From: a phage
Sequence record: PZ543597.1
DNA: 64,000 bases
Reading direction: 5' to 3' (one strand)
Positions 53,712 through 61,266 of this stretch are shown here, in pieces. Under the pieces are notes generated by a model. It did not search any database, was not told where the DNA came from, and saw nothing but the letters and a program-made list of their open reading frames with translations. Position 1 is the first letter of the stretch. The number at the start of each line of letters is the position of its first letter. Position numbers and translations under genes: made by a program.

Positions 53712-53784
53712 TGGGAATTAGCCAAGTTGGTAAGGCACTGGATTTTGATTCCAGGATGCAAAGGTTCGAGTCCTTTATTCCCAG
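53712..53784 (+). tRNA. tRNA-Gln (anticodon UUG)
   Basis: acceptor TGGGAAT/ATTCCCA, anticodon loop tTTTGAt, T-loop GGTTCGAGTCC. Confidence 0.85.
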
Positions 53785-53785
53785 C

Positions 53786-53872
53786 GCGAGAATGGCCAAA
53801 TTGGTAAAGGCACAGCACTTAAAATGCTGCGGAATGATTTCCTTGTGGGTTCGAGTCCCACTTCTCGCACCA
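53786..53872 (+). tRNA. tRNA-Leu (anticodon UAA), type II, CCA encoded
   Basis: acceptor GCGAGAA/TTCTCGC, anticodon loop CTTAAAA, long variable arm, 3' ACCA. Confidence 0.85.
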
Positions 53873-53877
53873 AATTT

Positions 53878-53951
<74 letters not shown>

Positions 53952-53961
53952 ATTTAATTTA

Positions 53962-54035
53962 CTCCGTGTAGCTCAGTTTGGTAGAGCGTCTGCTTTGGGA
54001 GCAGAATGTCGTAGGTTCAAATCCTGCCACGGAGA
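53962..54035 (+). tRNA. tRNA-Pro (anticodon UGG)
   Basis: acceptor CTCCGTG/CACGGAG, anticodon loop TTTGGGA, T-loop GGTTCAAATCC. Confidence 0.85.
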
Positions 54036-54037
54036 CT

Positions 54038-54127
54038 GGAGGCGTGGCAGAGTGGTTTAATGCACCGGTCTTGAAAATCGGCAGTCGCTCCGGCGACTCA
54101 TAGGTTCAAATCCTATCGCCTCCGCCA
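54038..54127 (+). tRNA. tRNA-Ser (anticodon UGA), type II, CCA encoded
   Basis: acceptor GGAGGCG/CGCCTCC, anticodon loop CTTGAAA, long variable arm. Confidence 0.85.
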
Positions 54128-54132
54128 GTTTT

Positions 54133-54208
54133 GCTGATTTAGCTCAGTAGGTAGAGCAACTCACTTGTAATGAGAAGGTCGGCGGTTCGATTCCGTCAAT
54201 CAGCACCA
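54133..54208 (+). tRNA. tRNA-Thr (anticodon UGU), CCA encoded
   Basis: acceptor GCTGATT/AATCAGC, anticodon loop CTTGTAA. Confidence 0.85.
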
Positions 54209-54209
54209 A

Positions 54210-54284
54210 GGCCCTGTAGCTGGAAGGTTCAAGCAAGCGACTCATAATCGCCAGATGGTGGTTCAATTCCACCCAGGGCCACCA
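54210..54284 (+). tRNA. tRNA with CAU anticodon (Ile via lysidine, or Met), CCA encoded
   Basis: acceptor GGCCCTG/CAGGGCC, anticodon loop CTCATAA. Confidence 0.8.
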
Positions 54285-54293
54285 AATTAATTT

Positions 54294-54380
54294 GGGGAGT
54301 TATCCCGTAGAGGTAGCGGTGTGGACTGTAAATCCATTGTCATTGCGACTCGGGTGGTTCGACTCCACCACTCCCCACCA
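54294..54380 (+). tRNA. tRNA-Tyr (anticodon GUA), type II, CCA encoded
   Basis: acceptor GGGGAGT/ACTCCCC, anticodon loop CTGTAAA, long variable arm. Confidence 0.8.
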
Positions 54381-54384
54381 ATTT

Positions 54385-54459
54385 GGATGTGTAGCTCAAT
54401 GGCAGAGCGATCGCCTGTTAAGCGATTGGTTATAGGTTCGAATCCTATCACGTCCGCCA
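54385..54459 (+). tRNA. tRNA-Asn (anticodon GUU), CCA encoded
   Basis: acceptor GGATGTG/CACGTCC, anticodon loop CTGTTAA, T-loop GGTTCGAATCC. Confidence 0.8.
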
Positions 54460-54573
54460 AATTTGTGACAACTGTCACATTAATATCTACTTGACGCGAT
54501 TATAGGGGTTGAACTGATCACTCTTCTCTTAATTTCGTGTGAAGACATCTTGATTGTTGGAGTAGGTATTAAT

Positions 54574-54649
54574 GTGGCCGTAGTTCAGTTGGTAGAACTC
54601 GAGATTGTGATTCTCGTAGTCATGGGTTCGACTCCCATCGGTCACCCCA
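54574..54649 (+). tRNA. tRNA-His (anticodon GUG), CCA encoded
   Basis: acceptor GTGGCCG/CGGTCAC, anticodon stem CGAGA/TCTCG with loop TTGTGAT, discriminator C. Confidence 0.75.
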
Positions 54650-54653
54650 ATTA

Positions 54654-54729
54654 CGGGGCATAGCTCAGAAGGAAGAGCAAGGACCTTCTAAGTCCTAGGT
54701 CGTAGGTTCGATCCCTACTGCCTCGACCA
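54654..54729 (+). tRNA. tRNA-Arg (anticodon UCU), CCA encoded
   Basis: acceptor CGGGGCA/TGCCTCG, anticodon loop CTTCTAA, T-loop GGTTCGATCC. Confidence 0.85.
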
Positions 54730-54747: not shown

Positions 54748-55098
54748 ATGAAAGGTAATGTTTATTTAGTAGTTCATGATTTAACATTCTATTTTAATCA
54801 TAATGATACTGTTATTTCTGAACGTGTAATTAATTTGCTTTATCAGCATGCAGATTATGTTTATGTCGAAAACGAATATGGTCATTGGCAATTTCTCAAA
54901 AATCGTTCATTTGGTTTAGATGGTTACGAATATTTTGATCGTAAAGACCTTTTAGATACAATTCCGTTATCTACACAATATCAAAATCATAAGTCTTTAC
55001 ATAAATGCCGGCTAATTCGAAATGCTGAATCCGCGTATGAAGCAATTGATTTGTGGCGTAAACGCCGTGAATATATTGATTCTTTAAAAGAATATTAA
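54748..55098 (+). CDS. hypothetical protein
   Basis: 116-aa ORF with SD (gaggaaa) directly after tRNA-Arg. Confidence 0.6.
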   Translation: MKGNVYLVVHDLTFYFNHNDTVISERVINLLYQHADYVYVENEYGHWQFLKNRSFGLDGYEYFDRKDLLDTIPLSTQYQNHKSLHKCRLIRNAESAYEAIDLWRKRREYIDSLKEY

Positions 55099-55405
55099 GA
55101 AACCGGGTCGCTACCGGTAAGTCGTCGGACTGATGTTCCCTGGAGTATAGTTTCCTCCCACAGTTTTACTGTGTTCTGGCTCTTTACTATCACAGCAGAA
55201 ACGGCGCACCGAATTATCGATTCGAGGAAATATCTTTGCCGTAAGCCGAGTAGCGTTTTTGACGGAACGTTCGGATATGGTCGAGATATGGCCTTTTAAA
55301 AATATTGAGTAGCGTCAACTACTTAATAACCGGGTTCGAATCCCGGCGTTTCGTACAAACACTTGCCTTAGCAGGTGGAACCCCGACAAGGTTGCCGCAA
55401 GGCTT

Positions 55406-55434
55406 AGCCCCGACCGAAAGGTTGGGGCTTTTTG
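55406..55434 (+). terminator. rho-independent terminator (copy 1 of a repeated 31-bp terminator)
   Basis: agccccgacc-gaaa-ggttggggct + ttttt. Confidence 0.7.
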
Positions 55435-55435
55435 G

Positions 55436-55443
55436 TATAAATA
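55436..55443 (+). promoter_or_regulatory. late promoter TATAAATA upstream of the internal-protein gene
   Basis: exact TATAAATA 36 nt upstream of the ATG at 55479. Confidence 0.65.
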
Positions 55444-55478
55444 TTAGTATATTAAATCTACAAATTAAAACAGGAAAT

Positions 55479-55955
55479 AAGATGAAATCATATACTCAAT
55501 TTTTAAATGAAGCGGTGTTAAATGAAGCATCTAGCACCGAAATTCAAGCTGTTGCAAAAGCTGCCATTGCCGCGGGTAAATATTCCTATAAAGATGCTTC
55601 TGATGAATCGCGATTCCAGTTTGCACGCGACATGAAAGCGGAAGGATTTACGGGAAATGCAGTTAGTATGGCCTGGAAAAGTTTAGTTGCTACTGGCGCT
55701 GCTTTTGCAAAGGCTTCGGGTAAACCTGCTCCTAAAGCAGATCCTAAAGCGGCACAAGAAAAAAATATCGTTAAAGGAATTATCGCTAAATATGAAGCTA
55801 TCCTTAAAGAGCTTTTAGTAATCAAAACCGAAGGCCAAAAGTTAGCCCGTGCTTATAGTTTCAAAGATAATCCACATGTTCACTCTCTTGAGTATGTTGA
55901 AGACATCCAAAAAATTATTAAAGACCGCATTTGGTCTGCTAAACAAATCAAATGA
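55479..55955 (+). CDS. internal-protein-like head protein with capsid-targeting leader (MKSYTQFLNEA)
   Basis: 158 aa; start at internal ATG with SD aggaaa; leader fits the IP capsid-targeting motif; Ala/Lys-rich body. Confidence 0.75.
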   Translation, partial: KMKSYTQFLNEAVLNEASSTEIQAVAKAAIAAGKYSYKDASDESRFQFARDMKAEGFTGNAVSMAWKSLVATGAAFAKASGKPAPKADPKAAQEKNIVKGIIAKYEAILKELLVIKTEGQKLARAYSFKDNPHVHSLEYVEDIQKIIKDRIWSAKQIK

Positions 55956-55962
55956 CATTCTT

Positions 55963-55990
55963 AGCCCCGACCGAAAGGTTGGGGCTTTTT
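55963..55990 (+). terminator. rho-independent terminator (copy 2 of the repeated 31-bp terminator)
   Basis: same 31-bp hairpin sequence as at 55403-55433. Confidence 0.7.
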
Positions 55991-56080
55991 AGTTTGAATC
56001 ACTCGGATAACGCTGTTACGGATAGTAACAAAGTAATAAATAATTAATAACCAACCGATAAATTATTTCAAGGATTTTAA

Positions 56081-56644
56081 ATGAAAACCTATGCCGAATT
56101 TTTAACCGAAGCAGCAAAATTACCATCTGAAGCAGATCTTACTAAAGTATTCTTCCAATTGGACCCAAAAGACCGCGGCGATTTTCTTAAGTGGAAAGCT
56201 AAAGCTATTGAAATGTACAACATCGATAATAGTTCTTTTACAATGAGTCAAGAAAATAAATTCAATAAAGCATTTTTCAAAATTTCTAAGAAATTGGCAT
56301 CTGGCGCTCAGGTTCCTAAATCTGTGTTAGCTACTCCTGAACGCGCACCTGTTAAAATTTCTAAGAATATGTTCGACACTAAAAAATACGTTAATGCTTT
56401 GAATAAAGCTCTTGATGCATTGGATGATGCAAAGAAGGCAGCCCGCGATCTTCAAGACGTGTACACCGATTTTGACCGCAAAACTAAAGGTTCTATTTCA
56501 AATAGCGAACGCAATAGTGTAAGTGTTTATTCTGATAGCCTTGATGTTCTTGGCGATGCGTATACTGAAATTAAAAATCGTATTAACACTGCATCTAAGC
56601 TAAAAGCTGCTGCAGAAGCTATAATAAGTAAACTAGGTAAATAA
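56081..56644 (+). CDS. internal-protein-like head protein with capsid-targeting leader (MKTYAEFLTEA), IPIII-sized
   Basis: 187-aa ORF; leader MKTYAEFLTEA; SD aaggat. Confidence 0.75.
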   Translation: MKTYAEFLTEAAKLPSEADLTKVFFQLDPKDRGDFLKWKAKAIEMYNIDNSSFTMSQENKFNKAFFKISKKLASGAQVPKSVLATPERAPVKISKNMFDTKKYVNALNKALDALDDAKKAARDLQDVYTDFDRKTKGSISNSERNSVSVYSDSLDVLGDAYTEIKNRINTASKLKAAAEAIISKLGK

Positions 56645-56810: not shown

Positions 56811-56839
56811 TTTACATCCCCGTTCTTCCATGGTACTAT
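56811..56839 (+). promoter_or_regulatory. early-type promoter (TTTACA-N17-TACTAT)
   Basis: -35 56811-56816, -10 56834-56839. Confidence 0.65.
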
Positions 56840-57148: not shown

Positions 57149-57177
57149 TTTACACAGGCTCATGATTGAGATATTAT
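57149..57177 (+). promoter_or_regulatory. early-type promoter (TTTACA-N17-TATTAT) overlapping a 28-bp palindrome
   Basis: -35 57149-57154, -10 57172-57177; aggctcat...atgagcct inverted repeat 57156-57183. Confidence 0.6.
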
Positions 57178-57539: not shown

Positions 57540-57568
57540 TTTACAATCTATTAAAAACGTGATATTAT
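57540..57568 (+). promoter_or_regulatory. early-type promoter (TTTACA-N17-TATTAT)
   Basis: -35 57540-57545, -10 57563-57568. Confidence 0.65.
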
Positions 57569-57595
57569 CTAATTGTATCAATCTAAGGAAATACT

Positions 57596-58189
57596 ATGAA
57601 CACACTGAAGAAAATTGTTGAGTTTATTCGCACTAAACTTGGTTCTGCTATGGCTAAAAATCTATCTGTTGAAGAACAGTATACTGCTGCAGCAGCAAAA
57701 CTACTTGATAAAATTAAAGATCTAAAAACTGCTTCTATTAAATCTATTAATGAAGAAAAACGTATTCGTGAACTTGTTATCGAAAAGAATCGACAGGCCG
57801 AATCAAAAGAGCGTGAAATTCGTAAACTTCTTTCCGAAGGTCAAGATGTAACAATGCATGCTAAACTCGGTTTACTATATCGCCGAACAGCTGAGCAGTT
57901 GACTACTAAAGCTGACGGTTATGCTGAAATGCGAATTGAAATCGCCAAGAAAGTAGTTGAGTTAGATGATGCTCGTCAAGAACTTGCAGTTAAATTGGAA
58001 TATATCCGTGAAACTCGTGCAGCAAATGCCCTTGGAATTAGTACTGCCGATGATGTAGTTGAAATCGCAGCGCTGACTAAGGTTGATATTGAAGATACCC
58101 TTGCTCGAGTTGAAACCTTTAACGGTAATATTTCCGGGGTTGAAACTACCTCTGCCGATGTCCAGGAATATATTAATTCTCTGAAATAA
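57596..58189 (+). CDS. coiled-coil protein, possible PspA/IM30-like
   Basis: 197-aa ORF, heptad-rich, charged; loose resemblance to the E. coli PspA helical pattern from memory; not verified. Confidence 0.6.
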
Positions 58190-58194
58190 TGATA

Positions 58195-58215
58195 AGGGGC
58201 TTCGGCCCCTATTAC
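58195..58215 (+). terminator. probable terminator hairpin
   Basis: GGGGC-TTCG-GCCCC hairpin after the stop; weak T-run. Confidence 0.5.
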
Positions 58216-58230
58216 TTGGAGTAAATAGGA

Positions 58231-58836
58231 ATGAAAATGCAAAGTGATTTCAATTCAATGTTTGAAGAGTTCCAAAGACAGGTTGATGTTCCAGATCAAT
58301 TATTAAATGCTCTTAAACGTATGGCAGAAGGACGTAATTACTATTGGGGGTCTTCATACGAAACTGATGAAAGTCTTTCTGGATTTTATAAAGGTAAAAA
58401 GTCTTTAATACGTCCTGGAATACTCATTAAAAGTATTGAATCAATTCATTCATTGACGTGTGATTTTGATGTTGAATTTACTGATTTCATTTCTCCTGAA
58501 TGGACAGTTTGTTATTTAAATGACGATTATGATTATCTTGGCGTTTATAGTTTAAGTGACGCATGGTTTAAACGTAATTTACAAAAGTCAAATTTGTTCT
58601 ATATTGATACTACGGTAAAATTTCAGGGAAAGAAATATTTCTTTACTCTTATAGTTGATTCTGAAACGAAGCATGAGAATAAACGTATTCTTAGTAAAAA
58701 GAATATCTTAACTATTGTTGATGATCTTTTTGATAAATTCGTAGAAAATCCCAATTTTGAAAGCGATTTATTACTAGAAAAATTTGTTAAGGAATGTAGA
58801 GAATATGTCAAAACCATCACTATACCTTCCAAGTAA
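58231..58836 (+). CDS. hypothetical protein (first member of the C-terminal F-V-K-E-C-R junction family)
   Basis: 201-aa ORF; C-terminus EKFVKECREYV. Confidence 0.6.
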   Translation: MKMQSDFNSMFEEFQRQVDVPDQLLNALKRMAEGRNYYWGSSYETDESLSGFYKGKKSLIRPGILIKSIESIHSLTCDFDVEFTDFISPEWTVCYLNDDYDYLGVYSLSDAWFKRNLQKSNLFYIDTTVKFQGKKYFFTLIVDSETKHENKRILSKKNILTIVDDLFDKFVENPNFESDLLLEKFVKECREYVKTITIPSK

Positions 58837-59197
58837 ACCGTTGAAGTATGAATTAAAGCGCCAGCTAATTCCTACTGATGTATTAATAGGTCCTGTTATA
58901 CTCATATCATTTGTAATTCTATTGATTATTGGAGGTGTTTTAGATGTTATGACTGATATTGATTCTGGCGAAATACTTGTGTTAATGCTAATTCTTCCAT
59001 TAATAGTTCCACTTTTATTAGTACCTGTAAATTGGGTAGGATACTGGTATCAAGGAAGACATTATCGTAAACGTGTACGCGAATGGAAAGCTCAGTGTAA
59101 AAAGATTAAAAAGGAACACCAGTTTAAACTTGCCGCGTATGAATTTGATGAAATTATGAAATTTGTTAAGGAATCACGATGCAAAAGCCAAAACTAA
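58805..59197 (+). CDS. small two-TM membrane protein (paralogue family)
   Basis: start placed at internal ATG (MSKPSLYLP...); two hydrophobic segments; C-terminus FVKESRCKSQN. Confidence 0.5.
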   Translation: MSKPSLYLPSKPLKYELKRQLIPTDVLIGPVILISFVILLIIGGVLDVMTDIDSGEILVLMLILPLIVPLLLVPVNWVGYWYQGRHYRKRVREWKAQCKKIKKEHQFKLAAYEFDEIMKFVKESRCKSQN

Positions 59198-59541
59198 ATA
59201 AAGTCAAATATTCGTTTTCTGAGTCATTTTTAATTTTTGCTGTGGCGTTGGCTGCAGCTCTTGCGGGTAGTCTTTTTGGATTGTTAATTGACTGTCTTAT
59301 TTTAAACATTGACGGCACAGTAAATATAATAGAAGTTTGGAGTGAACTTCACTATACCAAAATTATTTCATTGTTTTCATTTTTTGGTATTATATTATAT
59401 TTTCATTATGATAATTTTAAAATAAATTGGCAAAGAAAAAAGGATTACAAAATACAATTAAAGGAATATAATAACTACATGTCTTATATTGAAAATGAAT
59501 CAATGAAAGAGTTTGTGAGTGATTGCAGGAAAATCAAATGA
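59179..59541 (+). CDS. small two-TM membrane protein (paralogue family)
   Basis: 120-aa ORF; two hydrophobic segments; C-terminus EFVSDCRKIK; SD aagga. Confidence 0.55.
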   Translation: MQKPKLNKVKYSFSESFLIFAVALAAALAGSLFGLLIDCLILNIDGTVNIIEVWSELHYTKIISLFSFFGIILYFHYDNFKINWQRKKDYKIQLKEYNNYMSYIENESMKEFVSDCRKIK

Positions 59542-60026
59542 TTTTAAAAACTCGCTGGTATGATTTAGATGATGGGGACGATAGCATTTCAGTTGATAGA
59601 GTTGACTGGAATGGCTGTTCCGAAGATATGAAAAATTTGCTGATTAGGGAGTTTAGAATGGGATATCAACCAGTTAAGCCATCTACTGCAACAGATGATA
59701 AATTCGTGTGTATTCATAATGGTCGCGCTAAATTAACGAACGCTGATTGGTTCACAGATAAAATTATGATTCTGTGGTACATTATTAGTTTTCCTGTGAC
59801 ATCATTTGTATTTTGCTTCTTTGGAGAAAGTCCAGTAGGCAGAACGGGAGATTGGATTCTTTTAATCATACTTGTTAATATTTTTACAGCAGCAGTACTA
59901 TCAGGAATATGGTGCGTGTTCATTGAAATGCCATGGCGTTTACGTAGGCAGCAAAAGATTTTTGATGAAAAGAAATATACTCAAAATTTAAATAACTTTA
60001 TCACTGAATGCAGGAAATTAAAATGA
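59538..60026 (+). CDS. small two-TM membrane protein (paralogue family)
   Basis: start placed at internal ATG (MILKTRWYDL...) with SD aggaaa; two hydrophobic segments; C-terminus FITECRKLK. Confidence 0.55.
   Translation: MILKTRWYDLDDGDDSISVDRVDWNGCSEDMKNLLIREFRMGYQPVKPSTATDDKFVCIHNGRAKLTNADWFTDKIMILWYIISFPVTSFVFCFFGESPVGRTGDWILLIILVNIFTAAVLSGIWCVFIEMPWRLRRQQKIFDEKKYTQNLNNFITECRKLK

Positions 60027-60463: not shown

Positions 60464-61266
<803 letters not shown>

What the first reader, a model, noticed from the sequence alone, without database searches (positions are those of the whole stretch)
57596..58189. Coiled-coil protein with possible PspA/IM30-like character
A 197-aa, highly charged, heptad-rich protein with its own early promoter and terminator. 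By eye its helical charge pattern and segments such as [12 protein letters not shown] loosely resemble the PspA/IM30 membrane-stress family. A phage-encoded PspA-like protein could stabilise the inner membrane during infection. This rests on memory-based similarity only.
Basis: inference. Interest (0 to 1): 0.45.

Follow-up and report, generated by a model that had tools for sequence, protein, structure and literature searches.

The report
Phage T4 e.6: hidden PspA/ESCRT-III homolog
This early gene of a T4-like phage (the ortholog of T4 e.6, until now a "hypothetical protein" present in over a thousand phage genomes) is a very diverged relative of the bacterial membrane-repair protein PspA/Vipp1 (ESCRT-III superfamily), so the phage probably carries its own inner-membrane stabiliser.

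The parts
57540..57568 (+). T4-early / sigma-70-type promoter-like site: -35 TTTACA (57540-57545), 17-nt spacer, TG at 57560-57561, -10 TATTAT (57563-57568)
   Evidence: 10 of 12 matches, TG present. T4 e.6 RNA is classed as early (PMC9697503 supplement). Function as a promoter is inferred, not shown here.
57585..57589 (+). Shine-Dalgarno AAGGA, 6 nt before the ATG
   Evidence: Read directly from the sequence.
57596..58189 (+). CDS, 197 aa plus stop: ortholog of T4 e.6, a divergent PspA/IM30 (ESCRT-III superfamily) protein
   Evidence: 98% identical to T4 e.6; link to PspA/Vipp1.
57602..57661 (+). Helix alpha0 (aa 3-22): cationic amphipathic N-terminal helix, the putative membrane-binding element
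   Evidence: AF2 helix 3-22 at low pLDDT. muH 0.45, net charge +3, contiguous hydrophobic face L4/I7/V8/I11/L15/A18/M19. Aligns to alpha0 of PspA/Vipp1.
57668..57835 (+). Helix alpha1 (aa 25-80), first arm of the hairpin
   Evidence: pLDDT 68-95; aligned to PspA/Vipp1 alpha1.
57836..57850 (+). Hairpin tip (aa 81-85, EGQDV). The conserved family motif G-x-x-V-x-T-H-A-K-L-x-L-L-x-R-R follows it and aligns to PspA/Vipp1 G-x-E-x-L-A-R-x-A-L
   Evidence: conservation; alignment.
57851..58030 (+). Helix alpha2/3 (aa 86-145), second arm of the hairpin
58064..58120 (+). Alpha4 region (aa 157-175; short helices 157-160 and 165-175).
   Evidence: low to moderate pLDDT; lower-confidence part of the hhalign alignment.
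58151..58183 (+). Alpha5 (aa 186-196), ending in the conserved Y-x-x-S-L-K. Aligns to the PspA/Vipp1 C-terminal (D/E)ELAxLKA. The protein stops here, so there is no Vipp1-type alpha6
58195..58210 (+). GC-rich hairpin AGGGGC-UUCG-GCCCCU, 5 nt after the stop codon and 20 nt before the e.5 start. No U-tract, so it is a possible weak terminator or RNA-stability element
   Evidence: Listed as a predicted terminator in PMC5931544.

Best explanation
The gene is the ortholog of T4 e.6. It encodes a highly diverged, phage-borne member of the PspA/IM30/Vipp1 family, the bacterial branch of the ESCRT-III membrane-remodelling superfamily. That ancestry is shown here.

The mechanism is inferred. The gene is transcribed from a host-RNA-polymerase early promoter within minutes of infection. 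The soluble protein would bind the cytoplasmic face of the inner membrane through its cationic amphipathic N-terminal helix (alpha0). It would then polymerise through its alpha1/alpha2-3 hairpin and C-terminal helices into ESCRT-III-like rings, rods or carpets that seal leaky or stressed membrane and preserve the proton-motive force.

The rationale rests on established knowledge of the system, not on a test made here. T4 shuts off host transcription, so the infected cell cannot induce its own sigma-54/PspF-dependent psp operon. Meanwhile the inner membrane is punctured by injection, is hit again by superinfecting phage, and later fills with holin, whose premature triggering is PMF-sensitive. 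A phage-supplied PspA would protect energy supply and lysis timing.
For: Identity: 98% identical to T4 e.6.

Homology to PspA/Vipp1:
- A 46-sequence family profile against 177,635 PDB sequences puts Vipp1 sll0617 on top at E=9.1e-5. Eight of the top 9 hits are Vipp1/PspA, all aligned 1-146 to 1-147. The same hits appeared below threshold with the shallower profile.
- hhalign of the family against PspA/Vipp1 profiles gives 89.9% probability and 92.7-93.7% (E about 2-4e-7), over 196 co-linear columns covering both whole proteins.
- Controls: the real score is 50.4. Reversed profiles score 16.4 and 22.7, column shuffles 12.1+/-1.7, and heptad-preserving 7-column block shuffles 15.6+/-3.0 with a maximum of 26.1.
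- The signal rises with family diversity and survives removal of the four Pfam-positive-branch rows (P0185/6/7/9): 88.7%.

Transitive link through Pfam:
- P0185 and P0186 match the T4-like-only profile at E=1.4e-21 and 2.6e-20 over the full length, in a library of 1.8 billion proteins.
- P0186 is 24% identical to the window protein over 194 aa (E=5e-12) and falls in the same PHROG, phrog_1203.
- P0185 and P0186 score 35.1 and 39.0 bits on PF04012 PspA_IM30, above the curated cut-off of 33.9 (E=1.4e-8 and 8.9e-10). The same hit is precomputed.

Structure:
- The AF2 model has alpha0, a hairpin at 25-80/86-145 with pLDDT about 90, and short C-terminal helices.
- Foldseek ranks 1-9 in PDB are all Vipp1, from two species (probability 0.99-1.0, best E=9e-4), with archaeal ESCRT-III CdvB2 further down.
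- In the viral library, after the e.6 family itself, an uncharacterised protein comes at rank 6, then a giant-virus Snf7 and a phage protein annotated PspA/IM30.
- Alpha0 has muH 0.45 and charge +3, compared with muH 0.42 for PspA and 0.57 for Vipp1.

Expression: early RNA, and the protein is detected.
Against: - The window protein on its own has no PF04012 hit at E<=10, no PDB sequence hit, and only 6% hhalign probability. The claim therefore rests on family-level and transitive inference.
- E. coli PspA itself is only a weak hit for the family profile (E=3.9).
- A prefoldin coiled coil reaches E=9e-4 in the same PDB search, so compositional noise lies close to the significance level.
- Alpha0 and residues 147-162 are modelled with pLDDT below 50, and the C-terminal third is the least confident part of the hhalign alignment.
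- There are no pspF/B/C-type partners nearby.
- Nothing here tests membrane binding, polymerisation or any phenotype. I found no report of a phenotype for T4 e.6.
Confidence: 0.65

Rival explanations
1. It is PspA-derived but repurposed as a regulator or decoy rather than a membrane-repair polymer. For example, it could co-assemble with and poison host PspA polymers, or bind the AAA+ activator PspF or another host partner through the alpha1 surface, as E. coli PspA does. Either would manipulate the host envelope-stress response.
For: The best-conserved and best-aligned part is alpha0 to alpha3, the region that in E. coli PspA carries the PspF-binding surface (established knowledge, not tested here). 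The C-terminal third is divergent and poorly modelled. Phage early proteins are often host-takeover factors; PHROGs places the neighbouring membrane protein e.2 in its 'moron, auxiliary metabolic gene and host takeover' category.
Against: T4 shuts off host transcription early (established knowledge), so regulating a sigma-54 host operon would bring little benefit. The family is conserved in phages of hosts as different as Aeromonas, Serratia, Klebsiella and Erwinia, which favours a generic target such as the membrane over a specific host protein. The amphipathic alpha0 is retained.
Confidence: 0.12
2. It has a PspA/ESCRT-III fold but is used for a phage-specific membrane task rather than general leak repair. 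Candidates are sealing the injection channel, contributing to superinfection exclusion or resistance to lysis from without, holding holin-loaded membrane during lysis inhibition, or organising a membrane-attached assembly or replication site together with the neighbouring small membrane proteins.
For: It is expressed early. Small membrane-protein genes recur near the gene: e.4/e.3/e.2 in this window, an N-terminal-TM protein directly downstream in Kuttervirus FEC14 and in L089, and a 7-TM protein directly upstream in L088. This recalls the PspA-PspBC and LiaH-LiaI pairings (established knowledge).
Against: These neighbours are not detectably homologous to each other across phage families or to PspB, PspC or LiaI, so the association may simply reflect the general density of membrane ORFs in early regions. 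No phenotype data were found.
Confidence: 0.15
3. It is a generic coiled-coil or helical-hairpin protein with no common ancestry with PspA. On this view the similarity is convergent or compositional, and the function lies elsewhere, for example as a scaffold or adaptor.
Against: Reversed, column-shuffled and heptad-block-shuffled controls score 12-26 against 50.4 for the real alignment. The alignment is co-linear from residue 1 to the C-terminus of both families, with matching length and helix boundaries. Two family members pass Pfam's curated PF04012 threshold. Foldseek's top 9 of 350,542 chains are all Vipp1.
Confidence: 0.07

Closest known systems
PspA (phage shock protein A, E. coli; Pfam PF04012 PspA_IM30)
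   Different: Only about 10-12% identity in the hhalign alignment. The window protein itself does not reach any Pfam score. It is encoded by a lytic phage under an early sigma-70-type promoter rather than in a sigma-54/PspF-controlled pspABCDE operon, and has no PspB/C/F partners.
Vipp1/IM30 of cyanobacteria and chloroplasts (PDB 7o3w, 6zvr, 8qfv)
   Same: The best sequence-profile hit (E=9.1e-5) and the best Foldseek hits (ranks 1-9). Comparable alpha0 amphipathicity.
   Different: No C-terminal alpha6 extension, since the protein ends at alpha5. There is no thylakoid context. Nucleotide-pocket residues were not examined.
LiaH (Bacillus PspA homolog, anchored by the small membrane protein LiaI)
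   Same: Family member P0186 gives a sub-threshold match to NCBIfam LiaH over residues 7-137 (E=0.005). Small membrane-protein genes lie nearby.
   Different: The match is far below NCBIfam's cut-off. The nearby membrane proteins show no detected similarity to LiaI or PspB/C.
ESCRT-III proper (Snf7/CHMP; archaeal CdvB)
   Same: Same superfamily fold. CdvB2 filaments appear at Foldseek ranks 11-34, and a giant-virus Snf7 at rank 7 in the viral library.
   Different: No Snf7 Pfam match, and no Vps4-type ATPase was noted among the neighbouring genes. The e.6 family is closer to the bacterial PspA/Vipp1 branch.
Phage proteins already annotated as PspA/IM30 (e.g. Acinetobacter phage vB_AbaM_ME3, UniProt A0A172Q0S7)
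   Same: It shows that phages can carry this superfamily. It is a Foldseek hit to the e.6 model (E=5.5e-3, probability 1.0).
   Different: Only 16% identity, and it is not part of the e.6 family (phrog_1203). tblastn with E. coli PspA finds just two unverified metagenomic records among 50,697 phage records and none of the e.6 genes.

Membership tests
PspA/IM30 family (Pfam PF04012) | The protein itself matches the PF04012 profile at or above the gathering score (33.9 bits) | tested here: not met
   No PF04012 hit for the window protein even at E<=10. None among the top 25 families for 30 close homologs.
PspA/IM30 family (Pfam PF04012) | Unambiguous homologs of the protein (same family) match PF04012 above the gathering score, giving transitive membership | tested here: met
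   P0185 scores 35.1 bits (E=1.4e-8) and P0186 39.0 bits (E=8.9e-10); P0187 scores 22.3 bits. They are linked to the window protein by E=1e-21 and 3e-20 full-length profile hits, by BLASTP E=5e-12, and by the shared phrog_1203.
PspA/IM30 family (Pfam PF04012) | Co-linear profile-profile similarity to PspA/Vipp1 over alpha0 to alpha5, above compositional controls | tested here: met
   hhalign 89.9-93.7% probability over 158-196 columns starting at residue 1. Controls score 12-26 against 50.4. HMM search against PDB finds Vipp1 at E=9.1e-5.
PspA/IM30 / ESCRT-III superfamily | The fold: an N-terminal helix, a long alpha1/alpha2-3 helical hairpin, then shorter alpha4 and alpha5 | tested here: met
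PspA/IM30 / ESCRT-III superfamily | An amphipathic N-terminal helix alpha0 able to bind membrane | tested here: met
   In silico only: muH 0.45, net charge +3, a contiguous hydrophobic face flanked by Lys/Arg. Comparable to PspA (0.42) and Vipp1 (0.57).
PspA/IM30 / ESCRT-III superfamily | Homo-oligomerisation into rings, rods or helical polymers with domain-swapped alpha5 | not testable with these tools
   Needs multimer modelling or EM of purified protein.
PspA/IM30 / ESCRT-III superfamily | Membrane binding or remodelling, and maintenance of PMF | not testable with these tools
   Needs liposome assays, localisation, and membrane-potential measurements in e.6-deleted infections.
Psp regulon PspA sensu stricto | Genetic linkage to pspF and pspBC (or to a LiaI-type anchor), and negative regulation of PspF | tested here: not met
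   The neighbours e.8, e.7, e.5, e.4, e.3 and e.2 have no Pfam match and fall in PHROGs of unknown function or 'membrane protein'. The E. coli operon is shown for comparison.
Vipp1 subfamily | A C-terminal extension (alpha6) beyond the PspA core | tested here: not met
   The protein ends at alpha5 (197 aa), and the alignment reaches the PspA C-terminal LKA motif.
Eukaryotic/archaeal ESCRT-III (Snf7, PF03357) | A match to the Snf7 profile | tested here: not met
   No Snf7 hit at E<=10. There is only fold-level similarity to CdvB2 and a viral Snf7.

The most novel reading that the evidence does not exclude
Two large families of lytic myoviruses (T4-like Straboviridae and Vi1-like Ackermannviridae, over 1,000 sequenced genomes) carry their own ESCRT-III-superfamily membrane-repair polymer. 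It would be expressed early to replace the host Psp response that the phage itself silences. By holding the proton-motive force it would set the lysis clock, preventing premature holin triggering and sustaining lysis inhibition, and would protect against superinfection damage. This would be the first functional viral PspA, and a virus-encoded ESCRT-III in bacteria, in contrast to eukaryotic viruses, which hijack host ESCRT-III.
Probability: 0.3. Interest if true: 0.75.

Novelty: new member of a known kind. Interest (0 to 1): 0.6.

Why it matters
T4 is the reference lytic phage, yet about half of its genes still have no known function. e.6 is one of the conserved ones: it occurs in 1,107 phage records, and in every listed row is labelled 'hypothetical', 'e.6' or, apparently wrongly, 'host specificity protein'. 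Assigning it to the PspA/Vipp1/ESCRT-III superfamily gives a concrete hypothesis that can be tested directly with existing T4 genetics: a phage-encoded inner-membrane stabiliser. It also extends this ancient membrane-remodelling superfamily into bacterial viruses, and it connects to old unexplained observations on how infected cells keep their membrane energised until programmed lysis. Finally, it allows correction of an apparently wrong annotation that is spreading through the databases.

Tried and rejected
- Direct single-sequence tests found nothing and would have wrongly refuted the idea: Pfam at E<=10 and phmmer against PDB.
- Scanning 30 close homologs one by one against Pfam gave only scattered coiled-coil noise (HAUS6_N, DUF4407, USP8_interact and others).
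- The exhaustive HMM search of 1.8 billion representatives did not reach PspA itself. It returned only a closed family of 45 proteins, but it supplied the divergent members that made the link.
- My attempts to obtain a diverse PspA profile through the search for homologous proteins and the search for related loci on genomes returned only Enterobacterales PspA at 82% identity or more. I replaced these with a 7-sequence set drawn from PDB alignments, plasmids and metagenomic fragments.
- The AFDB50 fold library was unavailable.
- NCBIfam gave nothing above threshold.
- Literature searches for T4 e.6, or for phage-encoded PspA/ESCRT-III, found no functional study.
- The 'host specificity protein' and 'tail completion protein' labels on orthologs were considered and rejected. 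The protein has early RNA, is cytoplasmic-type and all-helical, and no listed row, cluster name or searched paper gave a basis for those names.
- Conserved synteny of e.7 and e.5 with e.6 across phage families was tested and not found.

Full report
**1. What is there.** The window is a Tequatrovirus (T4-like) genome segment. The 3.7 kb around the finding is 95-96% identical to many T4-type phages. The gene order is e.8, e.7, [finding], e.5, e.4, e.3, e.2, nudE, e (lysozyme), which is that of T4. The ORF at 57596-58189 (+) encodes 197 aa and is 193/197 identical to T4 e.6, annotated 'conserved hypothetical protein'. It has 33 K+R and 34 D+E residues.

A T4-early/sigma-70-like promoter lies at 57540-57568 (TTTACA, 17 nt, TATTAT, preceded by TG), and an AAGGA ribosome-binding site lies upstream of the start codon. 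The same promoter motif also precedes e.8 and e.7. Five nucleotides after the stop codon there is a 6-bp GC hairpin with a UUCG loop (58195-58210). It has no U-tract and an unremarkable folding energy, so calling it a terminator overstates the case, although others have listed it as one (PMC5931544). T4 e.6 is genuinely expressed: a time-resolved omics study classes its RNA as early and its protein as 'middle' (PMC9697503 supplement).

**2. Direct tests fail.** The single protein has no PspA_IM30 hit in Pfam even at E<=10. It falls in PHROG 1203, 'unknown function', and has no phmmer hit in the PDB. Thirty close homologs scanned one by one give only scattered coiled-coil families.

**3. Family-level tests succeed.** The family is conserved at about 197-203 aa across T4-like phages of Escherichia, Klebsiella, Serratia, Yersinia, Pectobacterium and Aeromonas. 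An exhaustive HMM search of 1.8 billion representatives returns a closed family of 45 proteins.

- With the shallow profile, Vipp1 appears only at E=1.8-4.4, but already aligned 4-143 to 4-145.
- With a 46-member profile that includes the divergent members (A2), Vipp1 sll0617 becomes the top hit among 177,635 PDB sequences at E=9.1e-5. Eight of the top nine hits are Vipp1/PspA, all aligned 1-146 to 1-147. A prefoldin coiled coil at E=9e-4 marks the noise level.
- Profile-profile comparison with a PspA profile gives 89.9% probability. With a more diverse 7-sequence PspA/IM30 profile it gives 92.7-93.7% (E about 2-4e-7) over 196 co-linear columns that span both proteins end to end.
- Controls that preserve coiled-coil composition score far lower than the real score of 50.4. 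The reversed template scores 16.4, the reversed query 22.7, 60 column shuffles 12.1+/-1.7, and 60 seven-column block shuffles 15.6+/-3.0 with a maximum of 26.1.
- The signal scales with family diversity: 6% for the single sequence, 17% for close T4-like members only, 68% for members at least 28% identical to the window protein, and 88.7% for the whole family without the Pfam-positive branch. This is the behaviour expected of true remote homology.

**4. A transitive bridge through Pfam.**
- Two divergent family members, P0185 and P0186, match the T4-like-only profile at E=1.4e-21 and 2.6e-20 over their full length.
- P0186 is 24% identical to the window protein over 194 aa (E=5e-12) and falls in the same PHROG 1203.
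- Both exceed Pfam's curated gathering score for PF04012 PspA_IM30: 35.1 and 39.0 bits against 33.9, E=1.4e-8 and 8.9e-10, residues 6-146 against profile positions 2-143. The same hit is on record in the precomputed annotation.
- This branch belongs to Ackermannviridae (Kuttervirus and Taipeivirus-like phages).

**5. Structure.** AlphaFold2 on the family alignment gives a mean pLDDT of 74.7. It shows a low-confidence N-terminal helix (3-22), a confident hairpin (25-80 and 86-145, pLDDT about 90), and short helices at 157-175 and 186-196.

- Foldseek against 350,542 PDB chains puts Vipp1 from two cyanobacteria at ranks 1-9 (probability 0.99-1.0, best E=9e-4). Archaeal ESCRT-III CdvB2 follows further down.
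- In the viral structure library, after the e.6 family itself (ranks 1-5) and an uncharacterised protein at rank 6, the next hits are a giant-virus Snf7 and an Acinetobacter phage protein annotated PspA/IM30.
- The N-terminal helix is cationic and amphipathic (muH 0.45, charge +3), like alpha0 of PspA (0.42) and Vipp1 (0.57).
- The protein ends at alpha5 with a conserved Y-x-x-S-L-K that aligns to the ELAxLKA end of the PspA core. It therefore lacks Vipp1's alpha6.
That specific cue was fortuitous.

**6. What it most likely does.** What is shown: ancestry in the PspA/IM30/ESCRT-III superfamily, early expression, a predicted ESCRT-III-type topology, and an amphipathic alpha0. What is inferred: the protein binds the inner membrane through alpha0 and polymerises to seal stressed membrane and preserve PMF.

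The biological logic rests on established knowledge, not on tests made here. T4 abolishes host transcription, so the sigma-54/PspF-dependent psp operon cannot be induced. Meanwhile the membrane is stressed by injection, by superinfection and by holin accumulation.

I rank three rivals below this: a regulatory or decoy role towards host PspA or PspF, a phage-specific membrane task carried out with neighbouring small membrane proteins, and a merely convergent coiled coil. The reasons are given in the rivals section.

**7. Known or new.** No public source names the protein as PspA-like. UniProt has 'Uncharacterized 22.0 kDa protein in e-segB intergenic region', and many records carry 'hypothetical protein' or an apparently spurious 'host specificity protein'. 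tblastn with E. coli PspA against 50,697 phage records finds only two unverified metagenomic fragments and none of the e.6 genes. Full-text searches found no paper on T4 e.6 function or on phage-encoded PspA/ESCRT-III. At least one unrelated phage protein is already annotated PspA/IM30, and Pfam already reaches the Ackermannviridae branch. I therefore rate this as a new member of a known kind, not a new kind.

**8. Verdict.** Overall confidence in the combined statement is 0.65, and interest is 0.6.

Noticed in passing
window 58784-60026 (e.4 58784-59197, e.3 59179-59541, e.2 59523-60026); also L091:4647-5225, L089:5650-6210, L088:4097-4933: Three consecutive small ORFs with predicted TM segments (two, one and two) follow e.5. 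Successive genes overlap by 19 nt, including e.2 with nudE. They share a C-terminal F-[VI]-x-[ED]-C-R-K motif, which suggests tandem paralogs with translational coupling. Membrane-protein genes also lie directly beside e.6 homologs in Ackermannviridae (an N-terminal-TM protein downstream) and in a metagenomic contig (a 7-TM protein upstream), but these are not detectably homologous to each other. They could be membrane partners of the PspA-like protein, by analogy with PspBC or LiaI.
   Followed up: partly
window 59523-60026 versus T4 L001:2153-2461: e.2 is a 167-aa ORF here (TTG start) that overlaps nudE. The annotated T4 e.2 is only 102 aa and ends 161 nt before nudE. PHROGs has one full-length family (phrog_2203, 'membrane protein') plus separate families for the N-terminal and C-terminal parts. 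This suggests the gene is split or truncated in T4 and some relatives.
   Followed up: no
window 54748-56644 and 60970-61266: About 2.1 kb holding three ORFs lies between the tRNA cluster and e.8, where T4 has only rnaC/rnaD and a short gap. Two of the ORFs (internal Met in 55305-55955, and 56081-56644), together with the ORF after the lysozyme gene (60970-61266), begin MK[ST]Y..FL.E. From memory, this resembles the capsid-targeting leader of T4 internal proteins. They may be extra or variant internal proteins.
   Followed up: no
window 53712-54729: A cluster of 11 tRNA genes (Gln, Leu, Gly, Pro, Ser, Thr, Met/CAT, Tyr, Asn, His, Arg), compared with 8 in T4. No segB homing-endonuclease gene interrupts it.
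   Followed up: no
window 56811-56839, 57149-57177, 57540-57568: The same early-promoter-like motif (TTTACA, 17 nt, TA[CT]TAT; two of the three have an upstream TG) precedes each of e.8, e.7 and e.6. This gives tandem early promoters for three consecutive small genes.
   Followed up: no
public records of e.6 orthologs (e.g. H89, H91-H93; UniRef names; BFVD A0A5Q2F7S5): Orthologs are widely labelled 'host specificity protein', and one Ackermannviridae homolog 'tail completion protein'. I saw no basis for either name in the listed rows, the cluster names or the papers searched. It appears to be a propagating mis-annotation.
   Followed up: partly
L085:3001-3675 (MT835668.1) and L086 (MT839532.1): Two 'UNVERIFIED Bacteriophage sp.' gut-metagenome scaffolds encode canonical full-length PspA proteins (31% and 28% identical to E. 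coli PspA). They are the only BLAST-detectable PspA genes among 50,697 phage records, and could be genuine phage genes or bacterial contamination.
   Followed up: no
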